From: Candidatus Pacearchaeota archaeon
GTDB taxonomy: Archaea > Nanobdellota > Nanobdellia > UBA10117 > JAFCGI01
Assembly (NCBI GenBank): GCA_017608235.1
Contig: JAFCGI010000001.1
Span: 74,651 to 138,650, forward strand
Reading direction: 5' to 3'
DNA: 64,000 bases
Positions 38,571 to 52,798 of the stretch are shown here, in pieces. A program made the translations under genes and the position numbers. How positions within the stretch are numbered: the first letter of the stretch is position 1; the number at the start of each line of letters is the position of its first letter. A model generated the notes under the pieces. The model searched no databases. It saw only the letters and a list, made by a program, of their open reading frames with translations, and had not been told where the DNA came from.

Positions 38571-40211
38571 ATGAATCAAAATCAGATGCAACCTATTTTT
38601 GTGTTACCAGAAGGTACACTAAGAAATTCTGGAAAGAATGCACAGAAGATTAATATAATGGCTGCAAAAGCAGTTGCAGATACTGTTAGAACTACCCTTG
38701 GACCAAAGGGAATGGATAAAATGCTTGTGGATTCTATCGGGGATGTGGTTATTACAAATGATGGTGTTACTATCTTAGATGAGATGGAAATAGATCATCC
38801 TGCCGCTAAAATGATTGTCGAGATTGCTAAGGTGCAAGAAGATGAAGTTGGAGATGGAACTACTACAGCAGTTATTTTGGGAGGAGAGCTATTGAAGAAT
38901 GCTGAAACTCTGATAGATAAGAATATCCATCCAACAGTTATTGCTAATGGATATAAGTTAGCTGCATCTAAGGCACAAGAAATATTACAAAATTTAGGAA
39001 CTGATATTTCAGTAAATGATAAAGATATTCTAAAAAATGTGGCTTTGACTGCTATGACTGGAAAAAATGTAGAGTGGGCAAGAGACAAGCTTGCTCAGAT
39101 TGCAGTAGATGCTATTTTATATGTGGTTGATAAAGAAGACAATAAAAGTGTGATTGATATAGATAATATAAAAATTGAGAAAAAAGAAGGTGGCGGAAGC
39201 AATGACACTGAGTTAGTACAAGGATTAGTAATAGATAAGGAAAGAGTTCATGCAGGAATGCCTAGATCTGTTGAGGATGCTAAGATTTTACTTCTTGATT
39301 CTGCTCTTGAAGTTAAGGAAACAGAAACAGATGCTAAAATAAGCATAACTAGTCCAGATCAGTTGCAAGCATTTATTGATCAGGAAGATAAGATGCTTAG
39401 AAATATGGTTGATAAAGTAGCAGCCACAGGAGTGAATGTTTTATTTTGTCAGAAAGGAATAGATGATATTGCTCAGCATTATTTATCTAAGCAAGGTATT
39501 TTTGCAGCTAGAAGAGTTAAGAAAAGTGATATGGAGAAATTAGCAAGAGCTACTGGAGCAAAAGTTATTACTAATTTAGATGCTATTGAGGAGCAAGATA
39601 TTGGATCTGCTGGCTTGGTTGAAGAGAAGAAGCTTGGTGGAGAAAACATGACTTTTATAAGAAAATGTGAGAATCCTAAGGCAGTTTCTATAGTTATTAG
39701 AGGCGGAACAGAACATGTTGTGGATGAGGTTGAGAGAGCATTAAAGGATGCTGTTGGAGACTTAGCTGCAGCAATTCATGTAGGTAAGTGCGTTTCTGGT
39801 GGTGGAGCCATAGAAGTAGAGCTAGCTAAGAAGCTTAGAGAATTTGCAGAAGGCACTTCCGGAAGAGAACAGCTAGCTGTGCAGGCTTTTGCAGATACTT
39901 TGGAGATAATTCCAAGAACTTTAGCTGAGAATGCAGGTTTAGATCCGATAGATATGCTTACAGATCTAAAATCAAAGCATGATGAAGGTAATGTTTCTGC
40001 AGGATTAGATGTTTTCACAGGGAAAGTTGAGGATATGTGGGCTAAAGGAGTTATTGAACCTTTAAAAATTAAGACTCAAGCCATACAGTCTGCATCAGAA
40101 GCAGCAATTATGCTGTTGAGAATAGATGACATTATTTCAGCAGGAAAACTTGATAAGGATCCTGGAATGGGTGGTGGAATGCCTCCTCAAGGAATGCCTG
40201 GAATGATGTAA
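38571..40211 (+). CDS. ths: Thermosome (group II chaperonin) subunit
   Basis: [25 protein letters not shown] tail; GGAGGTG RBS. Confidence 0.98.
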
Positions 40212-40255
40212 TTTTTTATTTTTTACTATTTTCCTCTTGTTTTAACTTAAATTAT

Positions 40256-40272
40256 CGAAAAGCTTTTAAAGC
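40256..40272 (+). promoter_or_regulatory. BRE-TATA promoter upstream of dnaG
   Basis: CGAAAAG followed by CTTTTAAAG matches the archaeal BRE+TATA consensus. Confidence 0.55.
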
Positions 40273-40454
40273 GAAATAGTTTGAGTTTTAGTGCGAAAAC
40301 AAAAGAAAATCGCGTATTAATTTAACTTTCATCATTTCATTATTTGAAAAAAAAGGAAGGCTAAATAGCCATAATAAAGCTAATAGAGCTTTATCAGAGT
40401 GGAAAGAGCTGTTTAGTAGAGTGTAGATTTCTTTTGTTTTAAGAGGTGATAATA

Positions 40455-41675
40455 ATGGGAAAAATAAGCCCTGTATCAATTAAGTATATTATTCATGCAA
40501 GTATAAAATTGAATGGTTTGATAGATAAACCAGATGTAATTGGTGCTGTTTTTGGCCAAACAGAAGGTTTACTAGGAACTGAATTAGAGTTAAGAGAACT
40601 ACAGAAATCTGGTAGAATTGGAAGAATTGATGTTAAATTAGAAACAAAATCTGGCAATACTGAAGGAGAGATATTTTTACCTAGTTCTATGGGTAAATCT
40701 GAAACTGCTATAATTGCAGCATCTCTTGAAACTATTGAGAGAGTAGGTCCTTGTGATGCTAAGATTAAGGTAACGAATATAGAAGATGTGCGTGTAGCTA
40801 AGAGAAATTTTATTCTTGACAGAGCTAAAGACTTATTAAAAGGATTAGTTGGAGATATGCCAGATTCTCAAGCATTTACCAATCAAGTTACTCAAACTGT
40901 TAGAACATTAGAAATTACAGAATATGGTAAAGATAGGTTACCTGCAGGTCCAAACATAGAAGATGTAGAAGAAATAGTTATAGTTGAAGGTAGAGCAGAT
41001 GTTATTAATTTGCTTAAATATGGCATTAGAAATGTTGTTGGATTAAATGGAGCAACCACTTCTGATAGTATTATTGATTTATTGAAAAAGAAGGTAGTTA
41101 CTTTGTTTGTTGATGGAGATAGAGGTGGAGATTTAATAGTGAGAAAGCTAGCTTCATTAGCAGATATTGATTTTGTGGCAAAGGCTCCAGATGGTAAGGA
41201 AGTTGAAGAGCTTACTCTTAAGGAGATAAATAAGTCTCTTAGAGCTAAGATTGCTTGGGAGCAAGCACAGGAAGAATTTAAGAGTGTTAGCCAATTAAAA
41301 GAAAAGCAGCAAGTTTCAAGAAAGCCACAACAAAGAAAAACATCTAATACTGGTTTTGAAAGGAGAACTAGTGTGGAAGATATTCCAAAAAAGAGTTTGA
41401 AACTTATAAGGCAAATGGCTGAAGAGTTAATTGGTACTAGAGGAGCATTTGTTTTGGATGAGGCTTTGAATATTCTTGGAAAGGTTCCAATAAAAGAATT
41501 GAATGATACTCTGAAAAACATGACAGATGATATATTTGCAATTGTTATGGATGGTACAGCAGATAACAGATTAGCTAAGCTAGCTAATTCAAAAAATGTA
41601 AAATATTTGGTAGCTACTAGTTCTCAAGTTACAGAGAGAGTATCTACAAAGATTTTAATTTCATCTAAGATTTAG
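40455..41675 (+). CDS. dnaG: Archaeal DnaG-type primase/exosome-associated protein
   Basis: KPDVIGAVFGQTEGLLG, TOPRIM VEGRADV and DGDRGG; GAGGTGAT RBS points to ATG 40455. Confidence 0.96.
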   Translation: MGKISPVSIKYIIHASIKLNGLIDKPDVIGAVFGQTEGLLGTELELRELQKSGRIGRIDVKLETKSGNTEGEIFLPSSMGKSETAIIAASLETIERVGPCDAKIKVTNIEDVRVAKRNFILDRAKDLLKGLVGDMPDSQAFTNQVTQTVRTLEITEYGKDRLPAGPNIEDVEEIVIVEGRADVINLLKYGIRNVVGLNGATTSDSIIDLLKKKVVTLFVDGDRGGDLIVRKLASLADIDFVAKAPDGKEVEELTLKEINKSLRAKIAWEQAQEEFKSVSQLKEKQQVSRKPQQRKTSNTGFERRTSVEDIPKKSLKLIRQMAEELIGTRGAFVLDEALNILGKVPIKELNDTLKNMTDDIFAIVMDGTADNRLAKLANSKNVKYLVATSSQVTERVSTKILISSKI

Positions 41676-41720
41676 ATTCTTAGTTTTTCTTTTTTTATTC
41701 TAATTTTGTTTTTTAATTTT

Positions 41721-42359
41721 TTATTTTTTAATTTCTGCAAAGATGTTATTTTCAAATATTTCAGATTTTGTTGTATTTAGGGTTGCATTTTTAATCAGAT
41801 CTAGAAGTTCTTTTTTTGTGAATAAGTGATAGAATCGTTTGTATTTTTTACCCCAAGGCACATAGATATCTCCAAAATCTTTTTTGCCTTTGAGCTTGTC
41901 TTTAAAGAACTCTAAGAAAAATCTTTTTTGCCAGCGCTTCCATGCACTTATTAGTGCTTTTGATTTTGGCTTAAGTATCCTTTTTAGTTCTTTTAGACTT
42001 TTTATTCTTGATTTTTTAGAAGGTAGATGATGTATTGTAGCGATCATTATTCCGGCATCAAATTTATTTGATTTGAAAGGAAGATGTTCAGCATCTCCTT
42101 GTACTAATAATATTTTAGGATAATTTTTTTGAGATTCACTTAATGATTCAAATGAAAAATCAAGTCCAATAAATTTTTGATTTTTTATGTGTTTAATATC
42201 GTTGCAGTTTCCACATCCAATATTTATGATTAGTGAATATGGTTTTAGTGAGTTTAAAAAAGAATTAAGTGGCTTCCAAGTTTTTCGTTTATATCCTTTG
42301 AAGTCTTTAATTATACTGTCATAAGTGTGCATTAGTTCTTTCTTTTTGTTTTTATCCAT
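41721..42359 (-). CDS. Trm9/ALKBH8-like class I SAM methyltransferase
   Basis: YD.I..., IGCGN, IATIHH, RILKP, VPW, RFYHLF. Confidence 0.8.
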   Translation of the reverse strand: MDKNKKKELMHTYDSIIKDFKGYKRKTWKPLNSFLNSLKPYSLIINIGCGNCNDIKHIKNQKFIGLDFSFESLSESQKNYPKILLVQGDAEHLPFKSNKFDAGIMIATIHHLPSKKSRIKSLKELKRILKPKSKALISAWKRWQKRFFLEFFKDKLKGKKDFGDIYVPWGKKYKRFYHLFTKKELLDLIKNATLNTTKSEIFENNIFAEIKK

Positions 42360-43611
42360 TGTAAATTTTTAGTATTTTTACTTTTTTTAACTCTGGATCT
42401 TTTATTAATTTTTTTAGAAGGTTTTCGATTTTTGTATATTTTCTTTTTAGCATTACAAAATATCTTTTATTTTCTTTTTGTATTTTGTATTTTGAATATT
42501 TTTTTTTGAATGCAAGAATATTTTCTTTATTAGCTTTAACTGGTGGACCAAAATGTTTCTTTTGTTTATCTAGATCTTTTTTGTTTGTGATTATATAGAA
42601 AAGTGCTTTTCCTTTTCCGAACCATTGCCATTCAGCTTCTAGTATTTTAAAGTTAGAATCAGATATTTGTTTTTTTAGATATTTGAATTTTTTTAGGAGT
42701 TTTGAACCTATTATATCTTTTTTACCTTTTTCAGGGGTTGCTTCAAAGATTATTAATTTTTTGTTTTTACTTTTTTGCTTAAGATCTTTGATTGAGATTT
42801 CTTGTACTTTGAATTTATCAGGATAGCTAGGTTTGAAGTCTTTGAATTTTGAGATTACTTTTTCAAACTTATCTAAGCTTAGAGCTGCTGCTGCATTTCT
42901 TTCTGGTTGTATTGGATCGATTACAATTAAAGGAGATATTTTTGATTTATTGATTTTTGATAGAGCTTCTTTTTCAGATCTATAATATTTCATAGGATCT
43001 ATTACTTGATTTTTTTTCCATTTTTTTCCTTGAGTTATTAGTTTTTTAAATGATCCATAATATATTGTTAGTATTTCAAGAACATGGCCAGAAAAACCAC
43101 GAATATGACTTTCAGCTCCATATGCATTTATTGATTTGCATAAGGCTTTTGTATATCTGATTTCTTTTTTAAGCTTTGGATTATTTTTTACTTTGGACTT
43201 TACCCAGTTAATATGTAGAGGAGAGATGTCTGTTATGTTTTTTGCTTGTTTTGGAATTGAGATTTTTAGAACTGGTATAATTTCTATATCAAATTTATTT
43301 TTTTTAGTTTGGAAATAATCTCTTGAACCATGAACTCTTTTTATGTTTTTAAGAGAATTTTTCAGAATTTTTTCTGCTATGTTTGAGAGTTTAGTGGATT
43401 TATTTTTATATTGGTTATAATTAAATCTTAGGAAAAAATCGATATCATTTGCTCCTGGTAGCCAAGTATCTTTTGCAATGGAGCCACCAACTATAATATC
43501 TGCAGGAGTTTTTTGTTTTTTAATTTCTTTAGTTATTTTATCTATGATATTTTTAGTTGTAATTTTTATTGAATCATATTCTTTTTTATTAGGAATCACT
43601 TGTATTTCCAT
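42352..43611 (-). CDS. cca: Archaeal class I CCA-adding enzyme
   Basis: GGSIAKDTWL..DIDFF, DIEIIP, YGAE...GFSG...E, IDP....RNAAAA. Confidence 0.95.
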   Translation of the reverse strand: MEIQVIPNKKEYDSIKITTKNIIDKITKEIKKQKTPADIIVGGSIAKDTWLPGANDIDFFLRFNYNQYKNKSTKLSNIAEKILKNSLKNIKRVHGSRDYFQTKKNKFDIEIIPVLKISIPKQAKNITDISPLHINWVKSKVKNNPKLKKEIRYTKALCKSINAYGAESHIRGFSGHVLEILTIYYGSFKKLITQGKKWKKNQVIDPMKYYRSEKEALSKINKSKISPLIVIDPIQPERNAAAALSLDKFEKVISKFKDFKPSYPDKFKVQEISIKDLKQKSKNKKLIIFEATPEKGKKDIIGSKLLKKFKYLKKQISDSNFKILEAEWQWFGKGKALFYIITNKKDLDKQKKHFGPPVKANKENILAFKKKYSKYKIQKENKRYFVMLKRKYTKIENLLKKLIKDPELKKVKILKIYNG

Positions 43612-43701
43612 GCTTTAGAATTATAATTAGTAAGTAATAAGCGTTTCTAAAGCTATTATGTAAAGATTTAAATATCTTTCAAATTTCTAGTTTAATTAGT
43701 T

Positions 43702-44073
43702 ATGGATAAGGTAGTAGTTGGTTTAATTGAAGAGATAGAAATTAGTGGTAGAAATAAGAAGAAGATTTTAGCTAAATTTGATACTGGTGCTACAAGGAGC
43801 GCTGTGGATTTTGAATTAGCATCTGAACTGGAATTAGGACCTGTTGTTGGAAAGACTATTGTTAGAACAAATCATGGTGTGGGTAAGAGAGCAATAGTTA
43901 GGGCTATGCTTAATATATGCGGCAAAGAAATTGAGGCTAATGTTTCTTTATCAGATAGAGAGAAAAATAAATATAAACTGTTAATTGGTAGGGATGTTAT
44001 CCATTCTAATTTTATTATAGATCCAAGCAAGAGTAATTCAAATTTAAAAGAAAGCAGCATATTAGAAAAATGA
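43702..44073 (+). CDS. Retropepsin-like aspartic protease (RimB/RimK-associated type)
   Basis: VGLIE, AKFDTGATRS, L.DR...Y.LLIGRD, F.IDP. Confidence 0.88.
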   Translation: MDKVVVGLIEEIEISGRNKKKILAKFDTGATRSAVDFELASELELGPVVGKTIVRTNHGVGKRAIVRAMLNICGKEIEANVSLSDREKNKYKLLIGRDVIHSNFIIDPSKSNSNLKESSILEK

Positions 44074-45164
44074 AATTAGCAATTGTTAGTTTAAAAAGTG
44101 CAAGTACTAAACAAATACTTAATGAAGCAACCAGGTATTTTGATAAAGTAGATTTATGTCATATAAAGAAAGTAAGATTAGAAGCTAACTCTGATTTGGA
44201 TGTTGTTTGTGAAGGAGCTAAGTTATCTGATTATGATGCAGTTCATTTGCGTGGGTCTTTTCGATATGATATTTTTCTTTATTCTATTGCAAAGATATTA
44301 GAGAAAAAAGGAGTTTATATTGGTGCAGATCCTAGCTTTTTTAAGATCGCACATCATAAGTTTTTAACTAGCATTGTTTTAGCTAGACATAATATACCTA
44401 TTCCTAAAACATATTTGAGTAATACTGTAGGTGCTGCTAAGGAAATTTTAAATGAAACTATATATCCGATTGTTATTAAACTTCCTGGAGGCACTCATGG
44501 CAAGGGAGTTATGTTTGCAGATTCTAGGTCTAATGCAAGCGCGATATTAGATACTTTAGAAATTCTTAAACAACCAATTTTGATTCAGGAGTATTTAGAT
44601 TGTGATGGTGAGGATATTAGAGCAATTGTTGTAGGGGATAAGGTTGTTGCTGCAATGAAACGGATTGCAGAATTAGGTGGTAAGAAAAGTAATATTCATG
44701 CTGGAGGTAGGGGAGAACCAGTATCAGTAACTAAAGAGCTTGAAGAAGTTGCGGTGGCTGCAGCAAAAGCTCTGGGTGCAGATGTTTGTGCTGTTGATTT
44801 GATAGAACATATCAAAGGCTATAAAGTTATTGAGGTTAATGTTTCTGCAGGCTTGCAAGGAATTACAGAGGCAACTAAAATAAATGTTGCAGGCAAGATT
44901 GCAGAATTTATTTATAATCAGACTAAGAAAAAGAAAAGTGTAGCAGACGAGAAAACTTATACTAAATTATCAAAAGAACTTGGTCTTAAAACAAAAGAAG
45001 ACAGATTAGGTAGATCTTTATATTCTCTTGAAGCTAGCTTTGCAGGAAGCAAGCTAGTGATTCCAGATTCTATTTCAAAATATTTAAAAGTTAAAAAAGG
45101 AGAAGAGCTTTATTTTAAAGTAGGAAAAAATCGGATAGAAGTTATTAATCCTAGAAAAGAATGA
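44070..45164 (+). CDS. rimK: RimK/LysX-family ATP-grasp peptide ligase with C-terminal AbrB-like domain
   Basis: IPIPKT, KLPGGTHGKGV, IQEY, DIR..VVG, SNIHAGG, AVD, EVN. Confidence 0.9.
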   Translation: MKLAIVSLKSASTKQILNEATRYFDKVDLCHIKKVRLEANSDLDVVCEGAKLSDYDAVHLRGSFRYDIFLYSIAKILEKKGVYIGADPSFFKIAHHKFLTSIVLARHNIPIPKTYLSNTVGAAKEILNETIYPIVIKLPGGTHGKGVMFADSRSNASAILDTLEILKQPILIQEYLDCDGEDIRAIVVGDKVVAAMKRIAELGGKKSNIHAGGRGEPVSVTKELEEVAVAAAKALGADVCAVDLIEHIKGYKVIEVNVSAGLQGITEATKINVAGKIAEFIYNQTKKKKSVADEKTYTKLSKELGLKTKEDRLGRSLYSLEASFAGSKLVIPDSISKYLKVKKGEELYFKVGKNRIEVINPRKE

Positions 45165-46252
45165 ATCTGGAAAAATTAAGATTAATTGATTTGAAGTTAG
45201 CTAGTATTTATTACTGTGGGTCTAGAGAGCAGGATAGATTTAATTTTTTTACTCATTTAACTCCAATAAATTTGGATGTTGAGAAAGCTAAATTCTTTAA
45301 GGTGTTTGAGAAAGGCAAAGATTATGATCCTAAGTTTAGATATATGCCTCTAAGTAGGGAGCTTGCATTTACTAAGAAAAAATTAGAGAAGTTAGAAATA
45401 GATCATAGCTCTTTAGGAAGGATATTAGATAAGAAAAAGCATGAATTGCTTTCTAAAATTAAGATTGTGGAAAATATAGGAAAACCTGGCTTTACAAATG
45501 CTGCGCAAGAATTATTTCCCTTGCCTACTAAGTCTTTATTGAGTTTTGCAGACAAGCATATTAATCTAAGAGTAAGGGAGGAAATTCAGAATCTTAGTGC
45601 TGTAGATGCAGCTAAATTATTATCTAAAGTGCTTAAGAAATATTATTTGAATTGGAAAGTTTCTGTTGCAACTATAAGTGCTAATATGAATGTTAATCAA
45701 TATAACAAGACTTTGACTATCAATAAGGATGCTAGGTTTTCAGAAAAAGAACTTAGAAGTTTAATTGTTCATGAAATAGGTACACATATTCTTAGAAGCG
45801 AGAATGCTAGAACTCAGCCATATAATATTTTTATTGCTTTTCCAAATTATCTAACTACAGAAGAAGGATTAGCGATTGTTAACGAAGAGAATGCAAGGTG
45901 TTTAAGTTTGCAAAGAGCAAAGGTTCTTTCAGGAAGAGTGTTTGCTTCAGATTTTGCACTAAAGCATTCTTTTTCAGAAACTGTAAATAGGCTTCTTAGA
46001 TTTGGTTTCCATCCGCAAGATGTTTGGAATATTGTGTCTAGAACCAAGAGAGGATTAACAGATACATCTAAGCCAGGAGTTTTCGCTAAGGATATAGCAT
46101 ATTTGGATGGTGTAATGAAAGTTAAGAGGTTTATTAGGTCTGGTGGAAATCTTAGAGATTTATATTATGGAAAAATAGGAATACATGATATTCATATAAT
46201 AAAAGAGATTAGTTTTTTGAATAAGAAGCTCTATATACCTTCTTTTATTTAG
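45161..46252 (+). CDS. DUF1704/MATCAP-like (QEGLA-motif) gluzincin metallocarboxypeptidase
   Basis: HEIGTH (HExxxH), TEEGLA, RTKRG, KD..YL.G, LYYGKI. Confidence 0.85.
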   Translation: MNLEKLRLIDLKLASIYYCGSREQDRFNFFTHLTPINLDVEKAKFFKVFEKGKDYDPKFRYMPLSRELAFTKKKLEKLEIDHSSLGRILDKKKHELLSKIKIVENIGKPGFTNAAQELFPLPTKSLLSFADKHINLRVREEIQNLSAVDAAKLLSKVLKKYYLNWKVSVATISANMNVNQYNKTLTINKDARFSEKELRSLIVHEIGTHILRSENARTQPYNIFIAFPNYLTTEEGLAIVNEENARCLSLQRAKVLSGRVFASDFALKHSFSETVNRLLRFGFHPQDVWNIVSRTKRGLTDTSKPGVFAKDIAYLDGVMKVKRFIRSGGNLRDLYYGKIGIHDIHIIKEISFLNKKLYIPSFI

Positions 46253-48056
46253 CTATTGATGATTTTCCAGCAGGTAAAACCTGCATTATTTTATCTAGGA
46301 GTTTTTTATTGATTTTTAATTTCTTTATTATTTTTTGAGCTATCTCAGATTTTTTTTGCCAGCCAGGAGATATTACTATATAGTTTTTAGTTTGTTTTTT
46401 AATTGCAGATTCTGGGCCTGCAATTATTTTTCCTTTGAATCCTATTGCTAATTTTAGTATGGCGTTTCTTTGATGATTTTTCTTGCCATATATCATGAAT
46501 GCACCTTTTCCTATGTACTGTCCAGAAGGAGCTTTTTTGGATACTTGATCTGGATTTATATAATATGTATCTACATTTCCTACTCCAGATTTCCAAGCTT
46601 TAGAATATGAAGCTGTTGCGATTGCTACTTCTTCTAAAGTGGCTTTTGGAATTTTTTTGTTTTCAGGATTTTTTATTATAAAAAAAGGAGATCCTGTTAT
46701 TTCTGTATGGAATACAAGATCATTTTTTTCTGTGTATTTTTTGATTATAATCTCATTGGAAGTCGCATCTTTTCCTCCTACTGCTAAGAATCCATCGCTA
46801 GAATAAAACCAATGGAATTTTTCATACCATTTTTTCTTGGTTTTGATTATTTTTTCTGGTTCCTTGAATTTAATTTGAGTTTTTTCTTTATCTAAATTTT
46901 TTATTTTCTCAAGAGTTTGATTTATGATTTTTTCTGCACCAGAAATTTTCTTCTTGATTTGCTTTGCAGTATCATAGTATTTTGAAGCATTTTCTTCTAA
47001 TGATTTTTTTGGATTTAATTTTATGTTTTTTATTTTATCTTTGCCTTCTTTTAGATATTTAGAAACTAATGAGTAATTTGTATAGAGAAAATCCCCAATT
47101 TCTTTATTTTTTTGATATAGTTTTTTATAGTTGTCTAGGGATTCTTTTTGAGTTTCATATATTTTTTTTAATTTAGTTATTTTAGCAAGATAGTTTGCTT
47201 CCAGTTTTGTTTTTATTTCTTGAGATAGCAATTCTGTGAAATAGATATCTAAGGCAGTATTAAAATTATCTACTTTTTTTTGATCATATTTTTTGTATAT
47301 TTTTAGTTTTATTGGCGTTACGTCAATTATTTTTTTATCTTTATAGATTAGATAAGGTGTTGGTTTTTTTGTTTTGGTTAGAAAGGTTTCTATTTCAGAA
47401 ATAATTGTATTAGTTTCTTTATCTGTTAGATTTTTTGAAATTTTGTTTTTACTTATTTTTGAATTATAGCAGATTTCTTCTGCAAAGATTCCTCCAAGAG
47501 AAAATTCTGTTGCAAGGGTTTTTACTATTTCTTTGCCTGATTTTTTAATTATGTTTTGAATTTCTGATTTTCTTAATCTAAATATATTTAGGTTTTCAGG
47601 AGGGTATTTGTAAGTATGATTTACTTTTAGAGTACGAGTTTTCCATTGCTCTGGTTTTGCTAGTGCAATTATTTTATAATTTTCATCAGTTAGAATAAAA
47701 TTTCCTTTTGAAAATAATTCGCAGATTAATATGCGATCTAAGAAATTTATTTCTATGATTCTTTCTAGGTTTTTTTGAGATATGTTTTTTATGATTTTAT
47801 TACCTAGATTTTTTCTTAGAGTTGTACAGAAAGTATTTGGTTTTTCTGGAAGATCTATTTTGTGCTCTGTTAGATATATTCCTATGCCTGAGTCTATTTT
47901 AAGAAGTATTTCACCTACCTGAGATTTATATATTTTGAGAAGTATTTGTTTTGAATTTGGTTGATATATTTGGTTTATTTTTGTGTCTATTATTTTTTCT
48001 TTTATTTCTTTTATTGCTGTAGCTAATTCTAGGGAGCTTAGTTTTTTGATTTTCAT
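46245..48056 (-). CDS. rqcH: Ribosome quality-control protein RqcH/Rqc2 (NFACT family)
   Basis: ERII, ELFSKGN.IL, NA..YY, WYEKFHWF.SSDG, GKDATSNE, QVSK....G.Y...GAFMIYG. Confidence 0.93.
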   Translation of the reverse strand: MKIKKLSSLELATAIKEIKEKIIDTKINQIYQPNSKQILLKIYKSQVGEILLKIDSGIGIYLTEHKIDLPEKPNTFCTTLRKNLGNKIIKNISQKNLERIIEINFLDRILICELFSKGNFILTDENYKIIALAKPEQWKTRTLKVNHTYKYPPENLNIFRLRKSEIQNIIKKSGKEIVKTLATEFSLGGIFAEEICYNSKISKNKISKNLTDKETNTIISEIETFLTKTKKPTPYLIYKDKKIIDVTPIKLKIYKKYDQKKVDNFNTALDIYFTELLSQEIKTKLEANYLAKITKLKKIYETQKESLDNYKKLYQKNKEIGDFLYTNYSLVSKYLKEGKDKIKNIKLNPKKSLEENASKYYDTAKQIKKKISGAEKIINQTLEKIKNLDKEKTQIKFKEPEKIIKTKKKWYEKFHWFYSSDGFLAVGGKDATSNEIIIKKYTEKNDLVFHTEITGSPFFIIKNPENKKIPKATLEEVAIATASYSKAWKSGVGNVDTYYINPDQVSKKAPSGQYIGKGAFMIYGKKNHQRNAILKLAIGFKGKIIAGPESAIKKQTKNYIVISPGWQKKSEIAQKIIKKLKINKKLLDKIMQVLPAGKSSIAK

Positions 48057-48080: not shown

Positions 48081-48584
48081 TTAAATATCTGTTGTTTCTT
48101 CTGTTTCTTCATGCAGTTCTATTTTTTCTCCTTCTTTAAGTTTGAAGTATTCATAAAATTTCTTTGTAGGTTTTAGTCTTTTAGTTTGGCCATGTGGTTC
48201 TGCAGAAATAAATCCTAATTCAACTAGTTTTTTAACATGTGCATATGCTTTATTGCTTCTTGCTTTTATTAAACTGGATTGTAATATTTTTTTTCTCCAT
48301 GCAATATAGCCAAGAGTTTCTAGCACAGATTTTTCTATTTCTGGTTCTGCTGCCTCTTTGACATAGTTTAGATATTCTTCTTTTACCTCGAATTTCCATT
48401 CACCATTTTTTTCTACTATTCTTATTCCTGCACCCCTGTTTTCATATTCCTGTTGCATTTCATTTAGTATTCTTTTCACGAATCCAGGCGAACCTATGTT
48501 TAATGTGGTAGCTATTTTTCTTGCACTAACTCCATGAGTTATACAATAAAGTATTGCTTCAATTTTTGCTTTTGATTCATCCAT
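48081..48584 (-). CDS. scpB: SMC-Scp complex subunit ScpB
   Basis: IEAILY, LETLGYIAW, HVK.L...G.I, T.KF.EYF. Confidence 0.9.
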   Translation of the reverse strand: MDESKAKIEAILYCITHGVSARKIATTLNIGSPGFVKRILNEMQQEYENRGAGIRIVEKNGEWKFEVKEEYLNYVKEAAEPEIEKSVLETLGYIAWRKKILQSSLIKARSNKAYAHVKKLVELGFISAEPHGQTKRLKPTKKFYEYFKLKEGEKIELHEETEETTDI

Positions 48585-49380
48585 TTTTTGCTTTTATTAT
48601 ATCCTGGCTTATATTTTTTTCTTTGATTCTAATTGATATTTCTCCAAAATGTTCTTTTTGAGATAGTTCTATTTTGTCTTGATTTGCAAGATGCAATAAT
48701 GGAACAAAAGTCCAAATTATGTCTTTTTTTTCGTTACTAGGAATTATTTGGTTGAATTCAACAACTGGTTGTCGCGTCTTTTTTAAATATTCTATAAGAG
48801 TATTATATACATTTTTTATTTTTTCAAAAATATCTACTTTTTTTCTTAGTTTTGGAGGCTCAGGACGTGGAGCATTTTTAATTAATTCATGCCGCTTTAC
48901 TCTTTTTTCTTCAACATCCATTGCTTTTTTAAGAGCATCCATTAATTCAAATACAGTTACTTTTCTTTTTCTTATACCAGGAATTCTTGTTGTTAGTTCT
49001 TTGCCTTTTCTTTTTCTGGTTTTTCCAGATTCTAATGCTATATTTTCTAAGTCTCCATCTTCAAAACCCATAGAATTTAGTTCTAAGCTAAGATCATCTT
49101 CTAAATCATCTGTATTTGTTAATGCTAGAAACTTATCTAAGCCCATATATTTTGTTTTTAATTTTAGAAGTATTGCTGCAGCAAGTATAACTTTTCCAGA
49201 TAGCCTGAAGTTTAGATTTTTTAGTTGTTTTATTATAGTAAGATATTCTTTAGAAAGATGAGAAATATCTAAGTCCCAAGGATCTATTTTTTTTGATCTT
49301 ACTAATTCATATATAACAGTTTGCCATTTAATATCATCTTCTTGAAATAAAATATCATATATTTGCTGATTTTTTTTCAT
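48577..49380 (-). CDS. scpA: Kleisin ScpA
   Basis: IDPWDLDI, SG..IL.AAILL.LK, VT..ELM.AL, F..LLHLA, Q...FGEI. Confidence 0.92.
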   Translation of the reverse strand: MKKNQQIYDILFQEDDIKWQTVIYELVRSKKIDPWDLDISHLSKEYLTIIKQLKNLNFRLSGKVILAAAILLKLKTKYMGLDKFLALTNTDDLEDDLSLELNSMGFEDGDLENIALESGKTRKRKGKELTTRIPGIRKRKVTVFELMDALKKAMDVEEKRVKRHELIKNAPRPEPPKLRKKVDIFEKIKNVYNTLIEYLKKTRQPVVEFNQIIPSNEKKDIIWTFVPLLHLANQDKIELSQKEHFGEISIRIKEKNISQDIIKAKNG

Positions 49381-49381
49381 T

Positions 49382-52300
49382 TTATATTTTTAGACTGACA
49401 ATATTTGATTCTCCAGTTTTTGGAGTCATAGATACACCATAGATTGTATCTGCTTCAGAGATTATTGCATCATTATGACTTATGATTATTACTTGTGCTT
49501 TTTGAGAATATTCTTTTAGTAGTTGAGCTACCTTTTCAGAGTTTACTTTGTCTAGAGCAGCATCGATTTCATCTAAGATATAAAATGGTGCTGGTGAAAA
49601 TTCTTGTATAGAAAATATGAATGATAATGCCACCAATACTTTTTCTCCCCCGGATAAGGAAGCAAGAGATATATGTTTTCCTTCTTTATCAATTATTCTT
49701 ACAGTTATTCCACCATCAAATGGATTTTCTTCATTTTCAAGGATTAGTTCTGCTTCTGCTTTTTCAGTCATCTTTGAGAATATTCTTGTAAAATTAGATT
49801 TAACCTTATTATAGGTTTCGAGAAAGCTATCTTTCTTTTTAGATTCAATTTCTTCAATTACTTCTAAAATATCTTGTCTTTCAGTGCCTAGTTTACTAGT
49901 TTTCCAAGTTAGTTCTTCAAATTCTTTCTTTACAGAATCATAGATTTCTAAAGCTCTCATGTTAACGTTTCCCATTTGCTCTAGTTTGTTAGAAAGATAT
50001 CTTGCTTTTTTCTTAGCTTCTTCTATTGAAGTTATTTCTAGGATTTTTATTTTTTCAAAATCTTTGAATTCTTCTTTTAGGCCTGCAAGTTCAGACTCAA
50101 ATTTAGCTTTTTCAATGGCTAAGAAATTCTTTTCTCGTTCTTTAATATCTATATCTTCTTTGATAGTATAGTATTTCTTTTCAATATCATCAAGTTTTTT
50201 GCTTTTGCTAGATTTTTCTTTGAATAATTCCCTTAATTTTCCTCTGAATTTTTCTTCTTCTAATTCTTTATTTTTAAGGTCTGATTTTAATTTTGTGATT
50301 CTAATCTCTTCTTGTTTTTCTTGTTTTTTGAACTTTATTTTTTCTTTTTCAAGTTCTTTTACAACATAAGAAATATTTTTTCTTTCTGGTTCTAATGCAT
50401 TATCTATTGTTGCATTTATACTGCTTATCTTAGCATCTATTTCAGAAAGACTGTTTTTTATTTCATCTATTTCTTGTTTCTTTTCTCCAAATCTTAATTC
50501 TTTGATTTTTAATTTTAGAGCATTCTTTTCTACTGTTTTTTTGTTTATTTTGTTTTCCAGATCTTTTAGTAGTTTGTTTGAGTTGGTTTTTTCTTTGTTT
50601 GTTATTTCTAGCTTCTTTAGAATTTCAGATTTTTCTTTTTCTATGTTGTCTAAGCTTATCTTACCCATAGCATCTAAACTTCCTTCTAATTCTGCTTTCT
50701 TTCGTCTTAGATCTATGAGTTTTGTTTCAAGTTCGATTCTTTCAGTTTCGGTTCTTTTGATTTCGTTTTTTAGAGCAGTTATTTCAATAGTTTTTGTATC
50801 TATGGTAGATCTTAATTCTGCTTCTTTGAATTTTATACCTAAGTTTTTATGCCTGTATCCGCCAGTTATTGCTCCAGATCTGTCAAATATATCTCCAGAG
50901 AGAGTTACCATTCTGTATTTTGCTATGCCTAGTTTTTTAGCAGTTTCAACATTTTCTATAATTAGTGTATTTTGGAATATGTATTTGAATAATGGCTTGA
51001 GTTTTTTGTCACAAGAGATTAAATCAGATGCTAAACCGTAGACTCCTGCTTGGGATTTAGCTTTATTTATTTCAGGATTTTCTATAACAGTTCTTATTTT
51101 TGATAATGGTAGGAAAGTTGCTATTCCTATTTTAGATTCTTTTAGAATGTTAAGACATTTTATTGCGGTGTCTGGATTGTCTACAGCAATGTTTTTCATT
51201 CTTGCTCCAGCAGCAACCTGTAGTGCTGTTGAGAATTTTGGAGAAACTTTACCTAGTTCTGATATGGTTCCAAATATGCCTTTATTTGTTTTTTTAAGTT
51301 CAAGAATTTTCTTGATCCCACGATCTCTTAATAGCATTTCTTCAGAAGAACCATAAGTTATTTTTTCTTTAGCAAGTTCTTCTTGTTTTTGTATTAATTT
51401 TTTTCTTAGGTCTCCAATTTTTAGTGCTATTTTTGAATCCTTGTTTGCTAGAGAACTAATTTCTTGAATTATTTTTTTATAATTGCTTTTTTGATCTTTA
51501 GTACTTTTACTTTTCTTTCCTAAATTAGAAAGTTTAGAATTTATTTCAGATATTTTGAATTCATTTATTTTATAATCACTTTCTATTTTTTGTATTTTTT
51601 CAATAAGTTTTGATTTTTGTGTTTGAAGGTCATCTAAGGCTTTTTCTTCTAGTTCTAAGTCAGATTCTAGTTTTTTGAAATCACCAGAGACTCCTAGATC
51701 TTTTTTTATTTTTGCTTCTTTTTTTAGAATTATAGTTTTATTTTTTTCTAGCTCAGCTTTTTCTTTATTTTGTGAATTTATTTTGGATTCTATGTTTTTT
51801 AAATTATCTGCTAGCTGTTTTTTTCTATTCTCTATTCTCTGCATCTCGTTTTTAGAGCTAATTACTAAATTTTTTGAGGTTTCTATACTTACTTTTAAGT
51901 TTTCAATTTGTTTTTGTAGAACTAATTGTTCTTCTCCACCTTTCTTTTCTATATCTTTTTCTAGTTTGTTTATTTTATTTTTTAGATTTTCTATATCTTT
52001 TTCCGAGTTGGAGAAGTCTTTTTGCAGTTTGATTTTTTCTTGATCTAAATTATTTATTTTTTTTTCTGCATTATTTTTTCTTTGATTTGCAAGATTTATT
52101 TTTAAGTGTAATTCTGTAGCTTCTGCACTTTTGATTTCAGATTCTATGTTTTTGTATTTTTCTGCATCTGCTTTTTCTGATTCTAGGGATTTAAGATAAG
52201 TTTCTTTTTCAGTAAGGATGATTTCTATTTCTTTTAGCTTGGCTTCTACTTTGGCAAGTTCCTTAAGAGTTTGTTCTTTTCTGTTTTCGTAAATGCTAAT

Positions 52301-52798
52301 ACCTGCAACTTCTTCAATAAGAAGTCTTTTATCTACTGGTCTCATGTCTACAAAAGAGTTTATGTCACCTTGAAGTATGATGTTATGACCATCTGGGCTT
52401 ACTTTTACTGTTGAAAGAAGTTCCAGAGCTTGTTGTCTTGATGCATTTCTTCCATTTATTTTATATTGAGCTTGCCCATTTTTTTTGATTTTTCTTAGTA
52501 TTTCTATTTTATCAGTGTCATAAGGAAATACTTTAGAAGAATTGTCTAAAGAGAATTTAACTTCTGCTTCTCCTAATTTTTTTTTATCTTTTTTTCTGAA
52601 AACTAATTCAGAGTAATTATCTGCTCTTAGACTTTTTGTACCCATTCGTCCAAGAACAAAACATAGACTATCTAGAACATTAGATTTTCCAGATCCATTT
52701 GCGCCTACTATGCAAGAAAGTCCAGGACCAAATTTTAGTTCGGTTTTTTTATTAAATGACTTAAACCCGCGTAGATGTAGATCCTTAATATAGGTCAT
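49382..52798 (-). CDS. smc: Chromosome segregation protein SMC
   Basis: GFKSF, GANGSGKSN, hinge GDIF..SGAITGG, LSGGEK, DEIDAALD. Confidence 0.97.
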   Translation of the reverse strand: MTYIKDLHLRGFKSFNKKTELKFGPGLSCIVGANGSGKSNVLDSLCFVLGRMGTKSLRADNYSELVFRKKDKKKLGEAEVKFSLDNSSKVFPYDTDKIEILRKIKKNGQAQYKINGRNASRQQALELLSTVKVSPDGHNIILQGDINSFVDMRPVDKRLLIEEVAGISIYENRKEQTLKELAKVEAKLKEIEIILTEKETYLKSLESEKADAEKYKNIESEIKSAEATELHLKINLANQRKNNAEKKINNLDQEKIKLQKDFSNSEKDIENLKNKINKLEKDIEKKGGEEQLVLQKQIENLKVSIETSKNLVISSKNEMQRIENRKKQLADNLKNIESKINSQNKEKAELEKNKTIILKKEAKIKKDLGVSGDFKKLESDLELEEKALDDLQTQKSKLIEKIQKIESDYKINEFKISEINSKLSNLGKKSKSTKDQKSNYKKIIQEISSLANKDSKIALKIGDLRKKLIQKQEELAKEKITYGSSEEMLLRDRGIKKILELKKTNKGIFGTISELGKVSPKFSTALQVAAGARMKNIAVDNPDTAIKCLNILKESKIGIATFLPLSKIRTVIENPEINKAKSQAGVYGLASDLISCDKKLKPLFKYIFQNTLIIENVETAKKLGIAKYRMVTLSGDIFDRSGAITGGYRHKNLGIKFKEAELRSTIDTKTIEITALKNEIKRTETERIELETKLIDLRRKKAELEGSLDAMGKISLDNIEKEKSEILKKLEITNKEKTNSNKLLKDLENKINKKTVEKNALKLKIKELRFGEKKQEIDEIKNSLSEIDAKISSINATIDNALEPERKNISYVVKELEKEKIKFKKQEKQEEIRITKLKSDLKNKELEEEKFRGKLRELFKEKSSKSKKLDDIEKKYYTIKEDIDIKEREKNFLAIEKAKFESELAGLKEEFKDFEKIKILEITSIEEAKKKARYLSNKLEQMGNVNMRALEIYDSVKKEFEELTWKTSKLGTERQDILEVIEEIESKKKDSFLETYNKVKSNFTRIFSKMTEKAEAELILENEENPFDGGITVRIIDKEGKHISLASLSGGEKVLVALSFIFSIQEFSPAPFYILDEIDAALDKVNSEKVAQLLKEYSQKAQVIIISHNDAIISEADTIYGVSMTPKTGESNIVSLKI

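What the first reader, a model, noticed from the sequence alone, without database searches (positions are those of the whole stretch)
43702..46252. Candidate archaeal writer/eraser peptide-tailing operon: retropepsin + RimK ligase + MATCAP-like carboxypeptidase
Seen: three genes joined by ATGA stop/start overlaps (44070-44073, 45161-45164), encoding a DTG aspartic protease, a RimK-type ATP-grasp ligase and an HExxxH...EEGLA metallopeptidase. Known: RimK adds C-terminal Glu tails, Pseudomonas RimB (retropepsin-like) trims poly-Glu, and eukaryotic MATCAP/TMCP (DUF1704 family) removes C-terminal residues from tubulin tails. Inference: a reversible C-terminal tailing or poly-amino-acid storage system with one writer and two erasers. 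The host lacks bacterial S6, so the substrate is unknown. I know of no characterised archaeal three-gene version.
Basis: partly seen in the sequence, partly recalled or inferred. Interest (0 to 1): 0.82.

Follow-up and report, generated by a model that had tools for sequence, protein, structure and literature searches.

The report
Archaeal peptide-tail ligase with two peptidases
A tiny archaeon carries three overlapping genes, an enzyme that probably adds amino-acid tails and two enzymes that probably cut them off, and the same three parts are fused into one protein in some ultra-small bacteria, but what they act on is unknown.

Summary
Three + strand genes (43702-44073, 44070-45164, 45161-46252) are joined by ATGA overlaps. 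They encode a DTGA retropepsin (PF05618), a RimK-family ATP-grasp ligase and a MATCAP-family HExxxH/EEG metallopeptidase. The MATCAP model's best PDB match is human MATCAP.

- **Conserved core:** this is the pair retropepsin + RimK. It was adjacent in 30 of 30 best RimK loci of the phylum.
- **MATCAP is usually unlinked:** 0 of 30 phylum loci, 7 of 80 GTDB loci and 19 of 80 metagenome loci have an ATP-grasp gene nearby.
- **The link is still real:** 70 of 71 MATCAP-positive genomes also have RimK. The closest relative (L144) keeps retropepsin-RimK-MATCAP on one strand. L199 holds all three families. In CPR bacteria 16 of 19 long homologues fuse ATP-grasp to MATCAP, with a retropepsin-like middle domain; L136 keeps DTGA.

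Bacterial S6, LysW and CofE were not found in the genome.

Best reading (0.55): a reversible C-terminal Glu-type tailing module with an endo- and an exo-peptidase, acceptor unknown. It is a new variant of the RimB/RimK kind. No biochemistry exists.

The parts
43667..43674 (+). TTTAAATA, a possible archaeal TATA box about 30 nt upstream of the first ATG. It would give a leaderless or near-leaderless three-gene transcript.
   Evidence: Read. That it acts as a promoter is inferred from recalled knowledge of archaeal promoters and was not tested. The bacterial-type scan is not informative for archaea.
43702..44073 (+). Retropepsin-like aspartic peptidase, 123 aa. The D-T-G-A catalytic motif is encoded at 43780-43791.
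   Evidence: Pfam PF05618 E 4.6e-12. D27, G29, A30 and G96 are invariant in 29 of 29 aligned homologues. Weak matches to the RloA3 and RimB NCBIfam models, far below their cut-offs. PDB 2pma E 0.012.
44070..45164 (+). RimK-family ATP-grasp ligase, 364 aa. The ATP-grasp core is about residues 1-290.
   Evidence: PF08443 E 5.8e-45. TIGR00768 206.8 bits, above the cut-off of 143.4. Best PDB match is E. coli RimK 5zct, E 6.7e-37. The invariant columns of A2 include D243, E255 and N257. Model pLDDT 87.9.
45015..45149 (+). Conserved C-terminal domain of the ligase (residues about 316-360), probably of the AbrB/SpoVT swapped-hairpin type.
   Evidence: Conserved in 28 of 28 aligned homologues. The model shows strands, one helix, then strands, with pLDDT 76-82. 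A profile against PDB gave 6 hits at E<=10. Four are AbrB/SpoVT, the best at E 0.051. The profile also finds P0102 (E 1.3e-5), a protein of 5 repeats that Pfam calls PrlF/MazE-AbrB. Pfam itself sees nothing in the window's copy.
45161..46252 (+). MATCAP-family (former DUF1704) zinc metallopeptidase, 363 aa. HExxxH is encoded at 45770-45787 and EEG at 45860-45868.
   Evidence: PF08014 E 2.2e-49. PDB human MATCAP 7z5g E 9.2e-15 by sequence. Model pLDDT 92.1. Foldseek ranks 1-5 are all human MATCAP. H204, E205, H209, E234 and E235 are invariant in 20 of 20 sequences.
44070..44073 (+). ATGA stop/start overlap between gene 1 and gene 2.
45161..45164 (+). ATGA stop/start overlap between gene 2 and gene 3.
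46270..46294 (+). Terminator-like hairpin followed by a T-rich run, 18 nt after the stop of gene 3. It lies inside the convergent NFACT gene.
   Evidence: Two such sites were found in the region against 1.2 expected from shuffles, so this is weak.

Best explanation
This is a co-translated three-enzyme module for making and removing short C-terminal alpha-linked amino-acid tails, most likely glutamate, on a protein or peptide acceptor that is still unknown.

Proposed steps:
1. **Ligase.** The RimK-family ATP-grasp ligase activates a C-terminal carboxylate with ATP and adds residues one after another. Its AbrB-like C-terminal domain serves for oligomerisation or for holding a partner (acceptor or nucleic acid).
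2. **Endopeptidase.** The homodimeric DTGA retropepsin cuts inside the tail, as RimB does.
3. **Carboxypeptidase.** The MATCAP-type zinc enzyme nibbles residues from the C-terminal end, as TMCP1/2 do on glutamylated tubulin. It either clears the stubs the endopeptidase cannot cut or exposes the acceptor end.

Shown here: the genes, their overlaps, family membership, intact catalytic motifs, conservation of the pair, and recurrent linkage and fusion of the three domain families.

Inferred: the chemistry, the amino acid added, the order of action and the existence of a protein acceptor.
For: **Family membership and intact catalytic residues:**

**Translational coupling:** ATGA overlaps.

**The retropepsin-RimK pair is conserved**
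- The retropepsin lies directly upstream, on the same strand, in 30 of 30 best RimK loci of the phylum.
- The gaps run from -50 to +58 nt by my first-ATG starts. A 4-nt overlap occurs in 8 of 30.
- RimK occurs in 263 of 401 sampled genomes. Six of those 263 are genomes flagged as unpublished.
- A single-chain retropepsin-RimK-CTD protein exists (P0096).

**MATCAP is tied to ATP-grasp and retropepsin domains**
- 70 of 71 other MATCAP-positive genomes are RimK-positive, against 192 of 329 MATCAP-negative ones (my hand count of the tables).
- 16 of 19 long MATCAP homologues carry PF14397 ATP-grasp plus PF08014 (Pfam re-run on 10 of the 19).
- The window's retropepsin matches their middle part in 7 of 19.
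- L136 has all three domains, with DTGA, in one 800-codon frame.
- L144 holds the closest relatives of both proteins (RimK 54%, MATCAP 43% identity). It has retropepsin, RimK with the CTD, two inserted genes, then MATCAP, all on one strand.
- L199 has a retropepsin next to 2 ATP-grasp and 2 MATCAP genes.
- The window's MATCAP and L144's are sisters (98 SH-aLRT).

**Known chemistry of relatives**
- TMCP1/2, which belong to the MATCAP family, shorten polyglutamate chains (PMC10499314, passages read).
Against: - No biochemical data exist for any archaeal member.
- The ligase is below every equivalog cut-off: RimK PRK10446 148.5 vs 331, LysX 159.5 vs 275.6, MptN 159.4 vs 350. The amino acid added is therefore not established.
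- The retropepsin is far below the RimB cut-off (28.2 vs 200).
- MATCAP is not adjacent to RimK in most genomes. An ATP-grasp gene lies nearby in 0 of 30 phylum loci, 7 of 80 GTDB loci and 19 of 80 metagenome loci. MATCAP was not found in 40 relatives of the window's order. It may therefore often work on its own.
- 191 of the other 262 RimK-positive genomes lack MATCAP, so MATCAP is dispensable for the pair.
- In 9 of 13 fused or linked loci examined, the retropepsin-like domain has lost the D[TS]G[AS] motif.
- No acceptor was identified. The proteins with acidic C-termini listed are only candidates.
- The co-occurrence counts ignore relatedness among genomes.
Confidence: 0.55

Rival explanations
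1. Free polymer metabolism. The ligase makes free poly-alpha-glutamate (or another homopolymer) without a protein acceptor, as a store of amino acid or charge in a cell that cannot make amino acids. The retropepsin and MATCAP break the polymer down to oligomers and then to monomers.
For: RimK makes free poly-alpha-L-glutamate and RimB stimulates this (PMC11957791, abstract and section 14). No S6, LysW or CofE was found in the genome. An endopeptidase plus an exopeptidase is a typical polymer-degrading pair. The ligase shows weak similarity to cyanophycin synthetase (67.3 bits vs cut-off 850).
Against: Characterised MATCAP-family enzymes act on protein tails (PMC10499314). The extra AbrB-like domain and the frequent lysine-tRNA ligase neighbour (14 of 30 loci) hint at a macromolecular partner. 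Nothing here tells the two readings apart directly.
Confidence: 0.2
2. Only the retropepsin-RimK pair is a unit. The MATCAP gene in this window is a chance neighbour that became overlapped, and it acts on unrelated substrates.
For: 0 of 30 phylum MATCAP loci, 73 of 80 GTDB loci and 61 of 80 metagenome loci show no ATP-grasp gene within the flanks held. 0 of 30 RimK loci have MATCAP downstream. No neighbour is conserved around unlinked MATCAP genes.
Against: The overlap is 4 nt. L144 repeats the linkage in the nearest relative. L199 and L211 have RimK-like and MATCAP genes in one operon. 16 of 19 long homologues are ATP-grasp/MATCAP fusions. Co-occurrence is 70 of 71.
Confidence: 0.12
3. Small-molecule glutamylation. 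The ligase extends a cofactor or metabolite, as MptN and CofF do, or loads a carrier protein, as LysX/ArgX do. The peptidases are unrelated to its product.
For: MptN and LysX models score as well as the bacterial RimK model (159 vs 148 bits).
Against: All of these scores are far below their cut-offs. No CofE and no LysW was found in a genome that is 93% complete. The gene is always paired with a peptidase (30 of 30). Methanopterin biosynthesis genes were not searched for.
Confidence: 0.05
4. Regulatory enzyme. The AbrB-like domain binds DNA, and the ligase doubles as a transcription factor that senses glutamate or ATP.
For: AbrB/SpoVT/MazE domains are DNA-binding in their characterised members (recalled, not tested). 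The domain is conserved in 28 of 28 homologues.
Against: The AbrB assignment is itself marginal (E 0.051). No operator repeat was looked for. This reading is compatible with the best explanation rather than opposed to it.
Confidence: 0.05

Closest known systems
Pseudomonas RimB-RimK (with RimA) and the bacterial RimBK hybrid (PMC11957791, PMC4741518)
   Same: A retropepsin-like aspartic endopeptidase is encoded directly beside, or fused to, a RimK-family alpha-L-glutamate ligase. The order is the same, with the peptidase first. The catalytic Asp motif is intact. A fused archaeal-type form exists (P0096).
   Different: The host is an archaeon in which S6 was not found. There is no RimA. Both proteins are far below the RimB and RimK equivalog cut-offs. 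The ligase has an extra AbrB-like C-terminal domain. A third, MATCAP-type peptidase is coupled to the pair.
Eukaryotic MATCAP1 / TMCP1-TMCP2 (KIAA0895L, KIAA0895; PDB 7z5g, 7z6s; PMC10499314)
   Same: Same Pfam family, same HExxxH...EEG zinc site, same fold. The eukaryotic enzymes remove C-terminal Tyr and Glu and shorten polyglutamate chains written by ATP-grasp ligases (TTLL).
   Different: About 24% identity. Binding to microtubules is not applicable here. The partner ligase is RimK-type, not TTL-type. The substrate is unknown. The survey described in the evolutionary-conservation passage I read covered 22 organisms, eukaryotic groups in that passage. The word-start 'prokaryot' occurs 0 times in the main text.
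CPR-bacterial ATPgrasp_ST (PF14397) / retropepsin-like / MATCAP fusion proteins of about 785 aa (P0001-P0017; L108, L132, L136)
   Same: The same three domain families occur together, here on one chain. The MATCAP part is 31-38% identical to the window's protein.
   Different: The ATP-grasp is of the PF14397 type, not RimK proper. The order is ligase, retropepsin, MATCAP. The aspartic motif is lost in most copies. There is no AbrB-like domain. These proteins are uncharacterised, and one source names one of them 'alpha-L-glutamate ligase-like protein/uncharacterized protein (TIGR02421 family)'.
Pseudomonas aeruginosa RloA-RloB-RloC operon (PMC11957051)
   Same: A retropepsin-like peptidase is in an operon with a cytoplasmic ATP-grasp protein. 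The NCBIfam RloA3 model is the window retropepsin's best NCBIfam match (37.3 bits).
   Different: RloA proteins are secreted, with signal peptides. The operon has a 7-TM inactive transglutaminase and no MATCAP. The window protein is far below the cut-off of 210.
Proteobacterial TIGR02421 'flavohemoglobin expression-modulating QEGLA motif protein'
   Same: Same superfamily and the same metal-binding motifs.
   Different: 167.3 bits against a cut-off of 338.65. The window protein has EEGLA, not QEGLA. The function of that family is not known to me beyond its NCBIfam name.
Archaeal RimK-family enzymes MptN, CofF, LysX/ArgX
   Same: Same ATP-grasp subfamily (TIGR00768).
   Different: All scores are below the equivalog cut-offs. 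LysW and CofE were not found in the genome. To my recollection those enzymes are not paired with peptidases; this was not tested here.

Membership tests
RimK family alpha-L-glutamate ligases (TIGR00768 / PF08443) | Profile score above the curated cut-off over the full ATP-grasp domain | tested here: met
   TIGR00768 206.8 bits vs 143.4, model positions 1-276 of 276. PF08443 153.6 bits vs 21.
RimK family alpha-L-glutamate ligases (TIGR00768 / PF08443) | ATP-grasp fold with conserved acidic/Asn metal ligands | tested here: met
   Model pLDDT 87.9. D243, E255 and N257 are invariant in 28 of 28. That these are the Mg ligands is recalled from ATP-grasp literature. Best PDB match is E. coli RimK, E 6.7e-37.
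RimK family alpha-L-glutamate ligases (TIGR00768 / PF08443) | ATP-dependent addition of L-glutamate to a carboxylate | not testable with these tools
   Needs an enzyme assay.
Ribosomal protein S6--L-glutamate ligase (RimK proper, NF007764) | Equivalog score and presence of the substrate bS6 | tested here: not met
   148.5 bits vs cut-off 331. PF01250 was not found in the genome, which is 93% complete.
RimB retropepsin-like endopeptidase (NF052261) / PF05618 | Family profile above cut-off | tested here: inconclusive
   PF05618 is met (46.5 vs 27). The RimB equivalog is not met (28.2 vs 200).
RimB retropepsin-like endopeptidase (NF052261) / PF05618 | Catalytic D-T/S-G-A motif and the later conserved Gly of retropepsins | tested here: met
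   D27, G29, A30 and G96 are invariant in 29 of 29.
RimB retropepsin-like endopeptidase (NF052261) / PF05618 | Encoded next to rimK | tested here: met
   Window and 30 of 30 loci.
RimB retropepsin-like endopeptidase (NF052261) / PF05618 | Cleaves polyglutamate tails | not testable with these tools
   Needs an assay.
MATCAP / TMCP metallocarboxypeptidases (PF08014) | Profile score above the cut-off | tested here: met
   168.8 bits vs 27.
MATCAP / TMCP metallocarboxypeptidases (PF08014) | HExxxH plus a downstream EEG third ligand | tested here: met
   H204, E205, H209, E234, E235 and G236 are invariant in 20 of 20. They align to the same motifs of 7z5g. The motif's role is as described in PMC10499314 (passage read).
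MATCAP / TMCP metallocarboxypeptidases (PF08014) | MATCAP fold | tested here: met
   Foldseek ranks 1-5 are human MATCAP, E 1.3e-11 to 4.2e-11, TM 0.59-0.66. The next hit is at E 1.3e-3.
MATCAP / TMCP metallocarboxypeptidases (PF08014) | Carboxypeptidase action on acidic C-terminal tails | not testable with these tools
   Needs an assay.
TIGR02421 QEGLA protein | Score above the curated cut-off | tested here: not met
   167.3 vs 338.65.
AbrB/SpoVT/MazE swapped-hairpin domain (PF04014 clan) | Significant profile match | tested here: inconclusive
   Pfam finds nothing in the window copy; 1 of 28 members matches at E 0.029. A profile against PDB gives AbrB at E 0.051-0.067 and SpoVT at 0.78. There is a transitive link through P0102.
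AbrB/SpoVT/MazE swapped-hairpin domain (PF04014 clan) | Strand-strand-helix-strand-strand half-barrel that dimerises | tested here: inconclusive
   The secondary-structure order in the model fits. Dimerisation was not tested, and no fold search of the isolated domain was possible.
Known anti-phage defence systems (PADLOC) | Any model match | tested here: not met
   0 families for the 3 proteins.

The most novel reading that the evidence does not exclude
Ultra-small archaea (DPANN) and bacteria (CPR) share an old, mobile 'tail code' kit, made of an ATP-grasp writer with a retropepsin and a MATCAP eraser, that reversibly tails a conserved cellular protein. That protein may belong to the translation apparatus, given the recurrent lysine-tRNA ligase neighbour. 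On this reading the eukaryotic tubulin detyrosinase/deglutamylase MATCAP descends from this kit, already paired with an amino-acid ligase before tubulin existed.
Probability: 0.3. Interest if true: 0.8.

Novelty: new variant of a known kind. Interest (0 to 1): 0.6.

Why it matters
RimK/RimB is so far a bacterial story tied to ribosomal protein S6. Here the same pair is common in an archaeal phylum (263 of 401 genomes sampled), and bS6 was not found in the window's own genome (not searched in the others). A different, unknown acceptor must therefore exist in organisms with very few genes to spare.

The MATCAP family is known only as a eukaryotic tubulin-tail eraser. Its prokaryotic members turn out to be operon-linked or fused to amino-acid ligases and to a second peptidase. 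This gives a testable hypothesis for what they do. It also suggests where the eukaryotic enzyme came from.

The three small soluble proteins are easy to express. The chemistry is directly testable.

Tried and rejected
- **Complex prediction**, RimK (A2) with retropepsin (A4): no answer, score 0.00 against a mark of 0.32. It counts neither for nor against binding.
- **The look-up of sequencing runs**: none was listed and no RNA holder was listed.
- **Iyer et al. 2009** (PMC3268129), the paper most likely to have described such neighbourhoods, is not held. Whether it already reports a MATCAP/DUF1704-ATP-grasp linkage is open.
- **Paper searches** for DUF1704+RimK (0 papers), DUF1704 (1 paper, on Plasmodium) and TIGR02421/QEGLA/PF08014 (33 papers; all 15 listed showed 0 occurrences of TIGR02421 and QEGLA and are Plasmodium papers). 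RimK+DPANN terms gave no listed paper containing RimK. Supplements were closed.
- **First metagenome scan** with the single protein found nothing.
- **Pfam** on the ligase tail alone gave nothing.
- **Recent lateral transfer by composition**: G+C is 0.29-0.33 across the operon against 0.31 for the genome, so there is no signal.
- **NFACT neighbour as a functional partner**: rejected. It is adjacent in 1 of 220 other loci.
- **Defence system**: no PADLOC match.
- **Candidate acceptors**: listing ORFs with acidic C-termini gave 86 ORFs, among them what look (by recall, not tested) like Spt5, RpoK and a cold-shock-domain protein. Nothing singles one out.
Full report
**1. Observation**

One search lists three + strand ORFs: 43702-44073 (123 aa), 44070-45164 (364 aa) and 45161-46252 (363 aa). 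One search shows ATGA at 44070-44073 and at 45161-45164, so each stop overlaps the next start.

D-T-G-A is encoded at 43780-43791, H-E-I-G-T-H at 45770-45787, and E-E-G (in TTEEGLA) at 45860-45868.

Upstream, the 90-nt gap to the divergent gene holds TTTAAATA at 43667-43674. I read this, from recalled knowledge of archaeal promoters, as a possible TATA box for a near-leaderless transcript. It was not tested.

Downstream, a convergent gene (46245-48056, minus strand) overlaps the last 8 bases.

**2. What the three proteins are**

*Gene 1.* It matches PF05618 (E 4.6e-12, 46.5 bits vs 27) and, weakly, general aspartic-protease families. The NCBIfam models RloA3 and RimB match at 37.3 and 28.2 bits, far under their cut-offs of 210 and 200. 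In an alignment with 28 homologues, D27, G29, A30 and G96 are invariant. It is therefore an intact retropepsin-type enzyme. It is related to RimB and RloA but is not an equivalog of either.

*Gene 2.* It is a RimK-family ATP-grasp protein (TIGR00768 206.8 bits vs 143.4; PF08443 E 5.8e-45). Its best solved relative is E. coli RimK (E 6.7e-37). It is below every equivalog cut-off:

| Model | Score (bits) | Cut-off (bits) |
|---|---|---|
| RimK PRK10446 | 148.5 | 331 |
| LysX | 159.5 | 275.6 |
| MptN | 159.4 | 350 |
| CofF | 85.8 | 300 |

After the ATP-grasp core (to about residue 290) and a variable linker comes a roughly 45-residue domain. It is conserved in all 28 aligned sequences. The AlphaFold model (pLDDT 87.9) folds it as strands, one helix, then strands.

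Evidence on what this domain is:
- A profile of it against PDB sequences returns 6 hits at E<=10. Four are AbrB or SpoVT N-domains aligned over the same 36 positions, best E 0.051.
- Against 1.84 billion representatives the profile finds only 90 proteins.
- Of the 12 I fetched, most are C-terminal pieces of RimK genes. One is a retropepsin-RimK-CTD fusion (P0096). One is a five-repeat protein (P0102, E 1.3e-5) that Pfam assigns to PrlF and MazE/AbrB above cut-off.
- Pfam sees nothing in the window's copy.

I call the domain 'probably AbrB-like'. The assignment is inconclusive.

*Gene 3.* It matches PF08014 MATCAP (E 2.2e-49) and human MATCAP in the PDB by sequence (E 9.2e-15), with HEIGTH and TEEGLA aligned to the same motifs. 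The model (pLDDT 92.1) has human MATCAP chains as Foldseek ranks 1-5 (E 1.3e-11 to 4.2e-11, TM 0.59-0.66). The next hits are M32-type carboxypeptidases at E 1.3e-3 and worse. The TIGR02421 model is not reached (167.3 vs 338.65).

**3. The host**

The genome holds 1.20 Mb in 56 contigs, with 31% G+C and 93% completeness. It belongs to the phylum whose public records are labelled Woesearchaeota, Nanoarchaeota or Nanobdellota (titles).

It has one RimK and one MATCAP gene. Ribosomal protein bS6, LysW and the F420 ligase CofE were not found. The known acceptors of RimK-family enzymes therefore appear to be missing. Methanopterin genes were not searched.

**4. Is the trio conserved?**

In an even sample of 401 genomes of the phylum, counts including the window's genome:
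- PF08014 occurs in 72.
- PF08443 occurs in 263. Six of those 263 are genomes flagged as unpublished. Only this tally, and the 192 of 329 derived from it, rest on them.

*The retropepsin-RimK pair.* Around the 30 best RimK matches, the retropepsin lies directly upstream on the same strand in 30 of 30, and MATCAP is not within the flank in any. By my first-ATG starts the gaps run from -50 to +58 nt, with a 4-nt overlap in 8 of 30. In 14 of 30 a class II lysine-tRNA ligase gene lies directly upstream of the retropepsin.

*MATCAP neighbourhoods.* Around the 30 best MATCAP matches (1.5-kb flanks), 0 of 30 have a RimK, other ATP-grasp or retropepsin gene, and no neighbour is conserved.

*The window's own order.* MATCAP was not found in 40 relatives. 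RimK-family matches were weak and rare: 5 of 40, best E 3.3e-30, in a 288-codon frame too short to hold the extra domain. Many of those genomes are incomplete (52-93%).

The conserved unit is therefore the pair. The three-gene form is unusual.

**5. Is MATCAP nevertheless tied to the pair?** Four lines say yes.

(a) *Co-occurrence.* 70 of the 71 other MATCAP-positive genomes are RimK-positive; G169 is the exception. Among MATCAP-negative genomes the figure is 192 of 329 (my hand count of the tables). Relatedness is not corrected for.

(b) *The nearest relatives.* A metagenome scan with the MATCAP alignment found 366 relatives, and I examined the best 80. L144 is the best MATCAP match (43%) and also holds the best RimK match (54%). 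It carries a partial retropepsin at the contig edge, then RimK with the same C-terminal domain, then two inserted genes (a winged-helix protein and a nucleotidyltransferase-like protein), then MATCAP, all on one strand. In a tree of 90 MATCAP domains, the window and L144 are sisters (98 SH-aLRT). They lie outside the large, mostly unlinked Woesearchaeota clade. The tree used all 30 linked rows and a random 60 of the 165 unlinked rows. The root is at the midpoint, for drawing only.

(c) *Another architecture.* L199 has a retropepsin (with a GNAT gene) divergent from an operon of two ATP-grasp and two MATCAP genes. One of those ATP-grasp proteins is RimK-family, at 151.4 bits vs 143.4. L211 has the same four genes.

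(d) *Fusions.*
- Of 19 MATCAP homologues longer than 637 aa, 16 carry PF14397 ATP-grasp plus PF08014 on one chain of about 785 aa. Where sources name them they are CPR bacteria (Pfam re-run on 10 of the 19).
- BLASTP places the window's retropepsin on the middle part of 7 of the 19 (E 7e-12 to 1e-3).
- In two I inspected, the Asp is kept but T-G is replaced.
- Of 13 fused or linked loci checked, 3 keep D[TS]G[AS]: L136, L201 and L186. L217 has D-T-G-Q. Nine lack the motif.
- L136 holds ATP-grasp, a DTGA retropepsin and MATCAP in one 800-codon frame.

*HMM counts of linkage:*

| Set of MATCAP loci | ATP-grasp nearby | Retropepsin-like nearby | Both |
|---|---|---|---|
| Best 30 of the phylum sample (1.5-kb flanks) | 0 of 30 | 0 of 30 | 0 of 30 |
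| Best 80 of GTDB species genomes | 7 of 80 | 4 of 80 | 3 of 80 |
| Best 80 of metagenome contigs | 19 of 80 | 16 of 80 | 15 of 80 |

The GTDB set was drawn from 359 relatives. L144's partial retropepsin was seen only by tblastn.

**6. Mechanism**

From relatives:
- RimK adds Glu to the C-terminus of S6 and makes free poly-alpha-glutamate.
- RimB cuts polyglutamate tails and internal runs, needs about five Glu, acts as a dimer, and stimulates RimK (PMC11957791: abstract, sections 13 and 14, and passages read).
- TMCP1/2, the MATCAP family, remove C-terminal Tyr and Glu and shorten polyglutamate chains (PMC10499314, passages read).

Put together with the coupling and the fusions, the most economical reading is one writer and two erasers of different reach, acting on a C-terminal tail. 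The endopeptidase removes long tails. The carboxypeptidase trims what is left or prepares the acceptor end. The AbrB-like domain would hold the enzyme in an oligomer or on a partner.

None of this chemistry is shown here. A free-polymer role is the main rival. The other rivals are a chance neighbour and a small-molecule product.

**7. Comparison and novelty**

The pair is a member of the RimB/RimK kind in the broad sense, not of their equivalog families. Four things go beyond what I could find in print:
- its abundance in an archaeal phylum (bS6 was searched for, and not found, only in the window's genome);
- the AbrB-like domain;
- the recurrent coupling or fusion with a MATCAP-family peptidase;
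- the parallel with the eukaryotic TTLL/MATCAP pair.

The RimB and Rlo papers have 0 occurrences of 'archaea'. The TMCP paper has 0 of 'prokaryot'.

The key 2009 comparative-genomics paper (Iyer et al.) could not be read. Supplements were closed. Public databases already show the fusion: one source names it as a glutamate-ligase-like/TIGR02421 protein. I therefore rate the finding as a new variant of a known kind, not a new kind.

**8. Verdict**

Confidence in the tailing-module reading is 0.55. Interest is 0.6.

Noticed in passing
G000 contig C30 (outside the window); L224 = C30:13000-20000: Contig C30 (51 kb) is packed with small paralogous ORFs of 84-230 aa. About 42 of them, by my count of the listing, end in the same C-terminal motif (...FILED or FILDD). 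Three that I scanned are ankyrin-repeat proteins. This is a striking tandem expansion in a 1.2-Mb genome. The shared acidic C-terminus made me note them as conceivable tail acceptors, but nothing supports that.
   Followed up: partly
window 46245-48056 (-): A convergent NFACT (Rqc2/RqcH-type) gene overlaps the MATCAP gene's last 8 bases (NFACT_N E 2.3e-60, NFACT-R_1 E 1.8e-36). By recall, NFACT proteins add C-terminal tails to stalled nascent chains, so the neighbourhood is suggestive. The adjacency is not conserved, however: it occurs in 1 of 220 other MATCAP or RimK loci.
   Followed up: yes
L035-L037, L041, L043, L044, L048, L050, L053-L055, L057, L061, L062: In 14 of the 30 best retropepsin-RimK loci a class II lysine-tRNA ligase gene lies directly upstream on the same strand, overlapping or abutting the retropepsin gene. 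This is not so in the window.
   Followed up: partly
L144 1368-2613: In the closest relative, two genes sit between RimK and MATCAP: a winged-helix protein and a nucleotidyltransferase-like protein. Another nucleotidyltransferase-like ORF is convergent downstream. The pair looks like an inserted toxin-antitoxin-type module (the TA reading is from recall).
   Followed up: partly
P0096 (496 aa): A single chain holds retropepsin (DTGA), RimK and the AbrB-like domain. It is the counterpart of the bacterial RimBK hybrid, in the lineage that has the C-terminal domain.
   Followed up: partly
L199 967-6123; L211: An operon of two ATP-grasp and two MATCAP paralogues sits next to a divergent retropepsin + GNAT acetyltransferase pair. 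The duplication of writer and eraser together suggests two specificities.
   Followed up: partly
G378:C1:199303-201681 (L003); G328:C12:25286-27355: Some genomes of the phylum carry two MATCAP genes side by side.
   Followed up: no
window 38571-43611 and 48081-52798: The operon sits among housekeeping genes. By their sequences they look like a thermosome subunit, a DnaG-type primase, a methyltransferase, a CCA-adding enzyme, ScpB, ScpA and SMC. These names are my reading of the translations and were not run through any tool.
   Followed up: no
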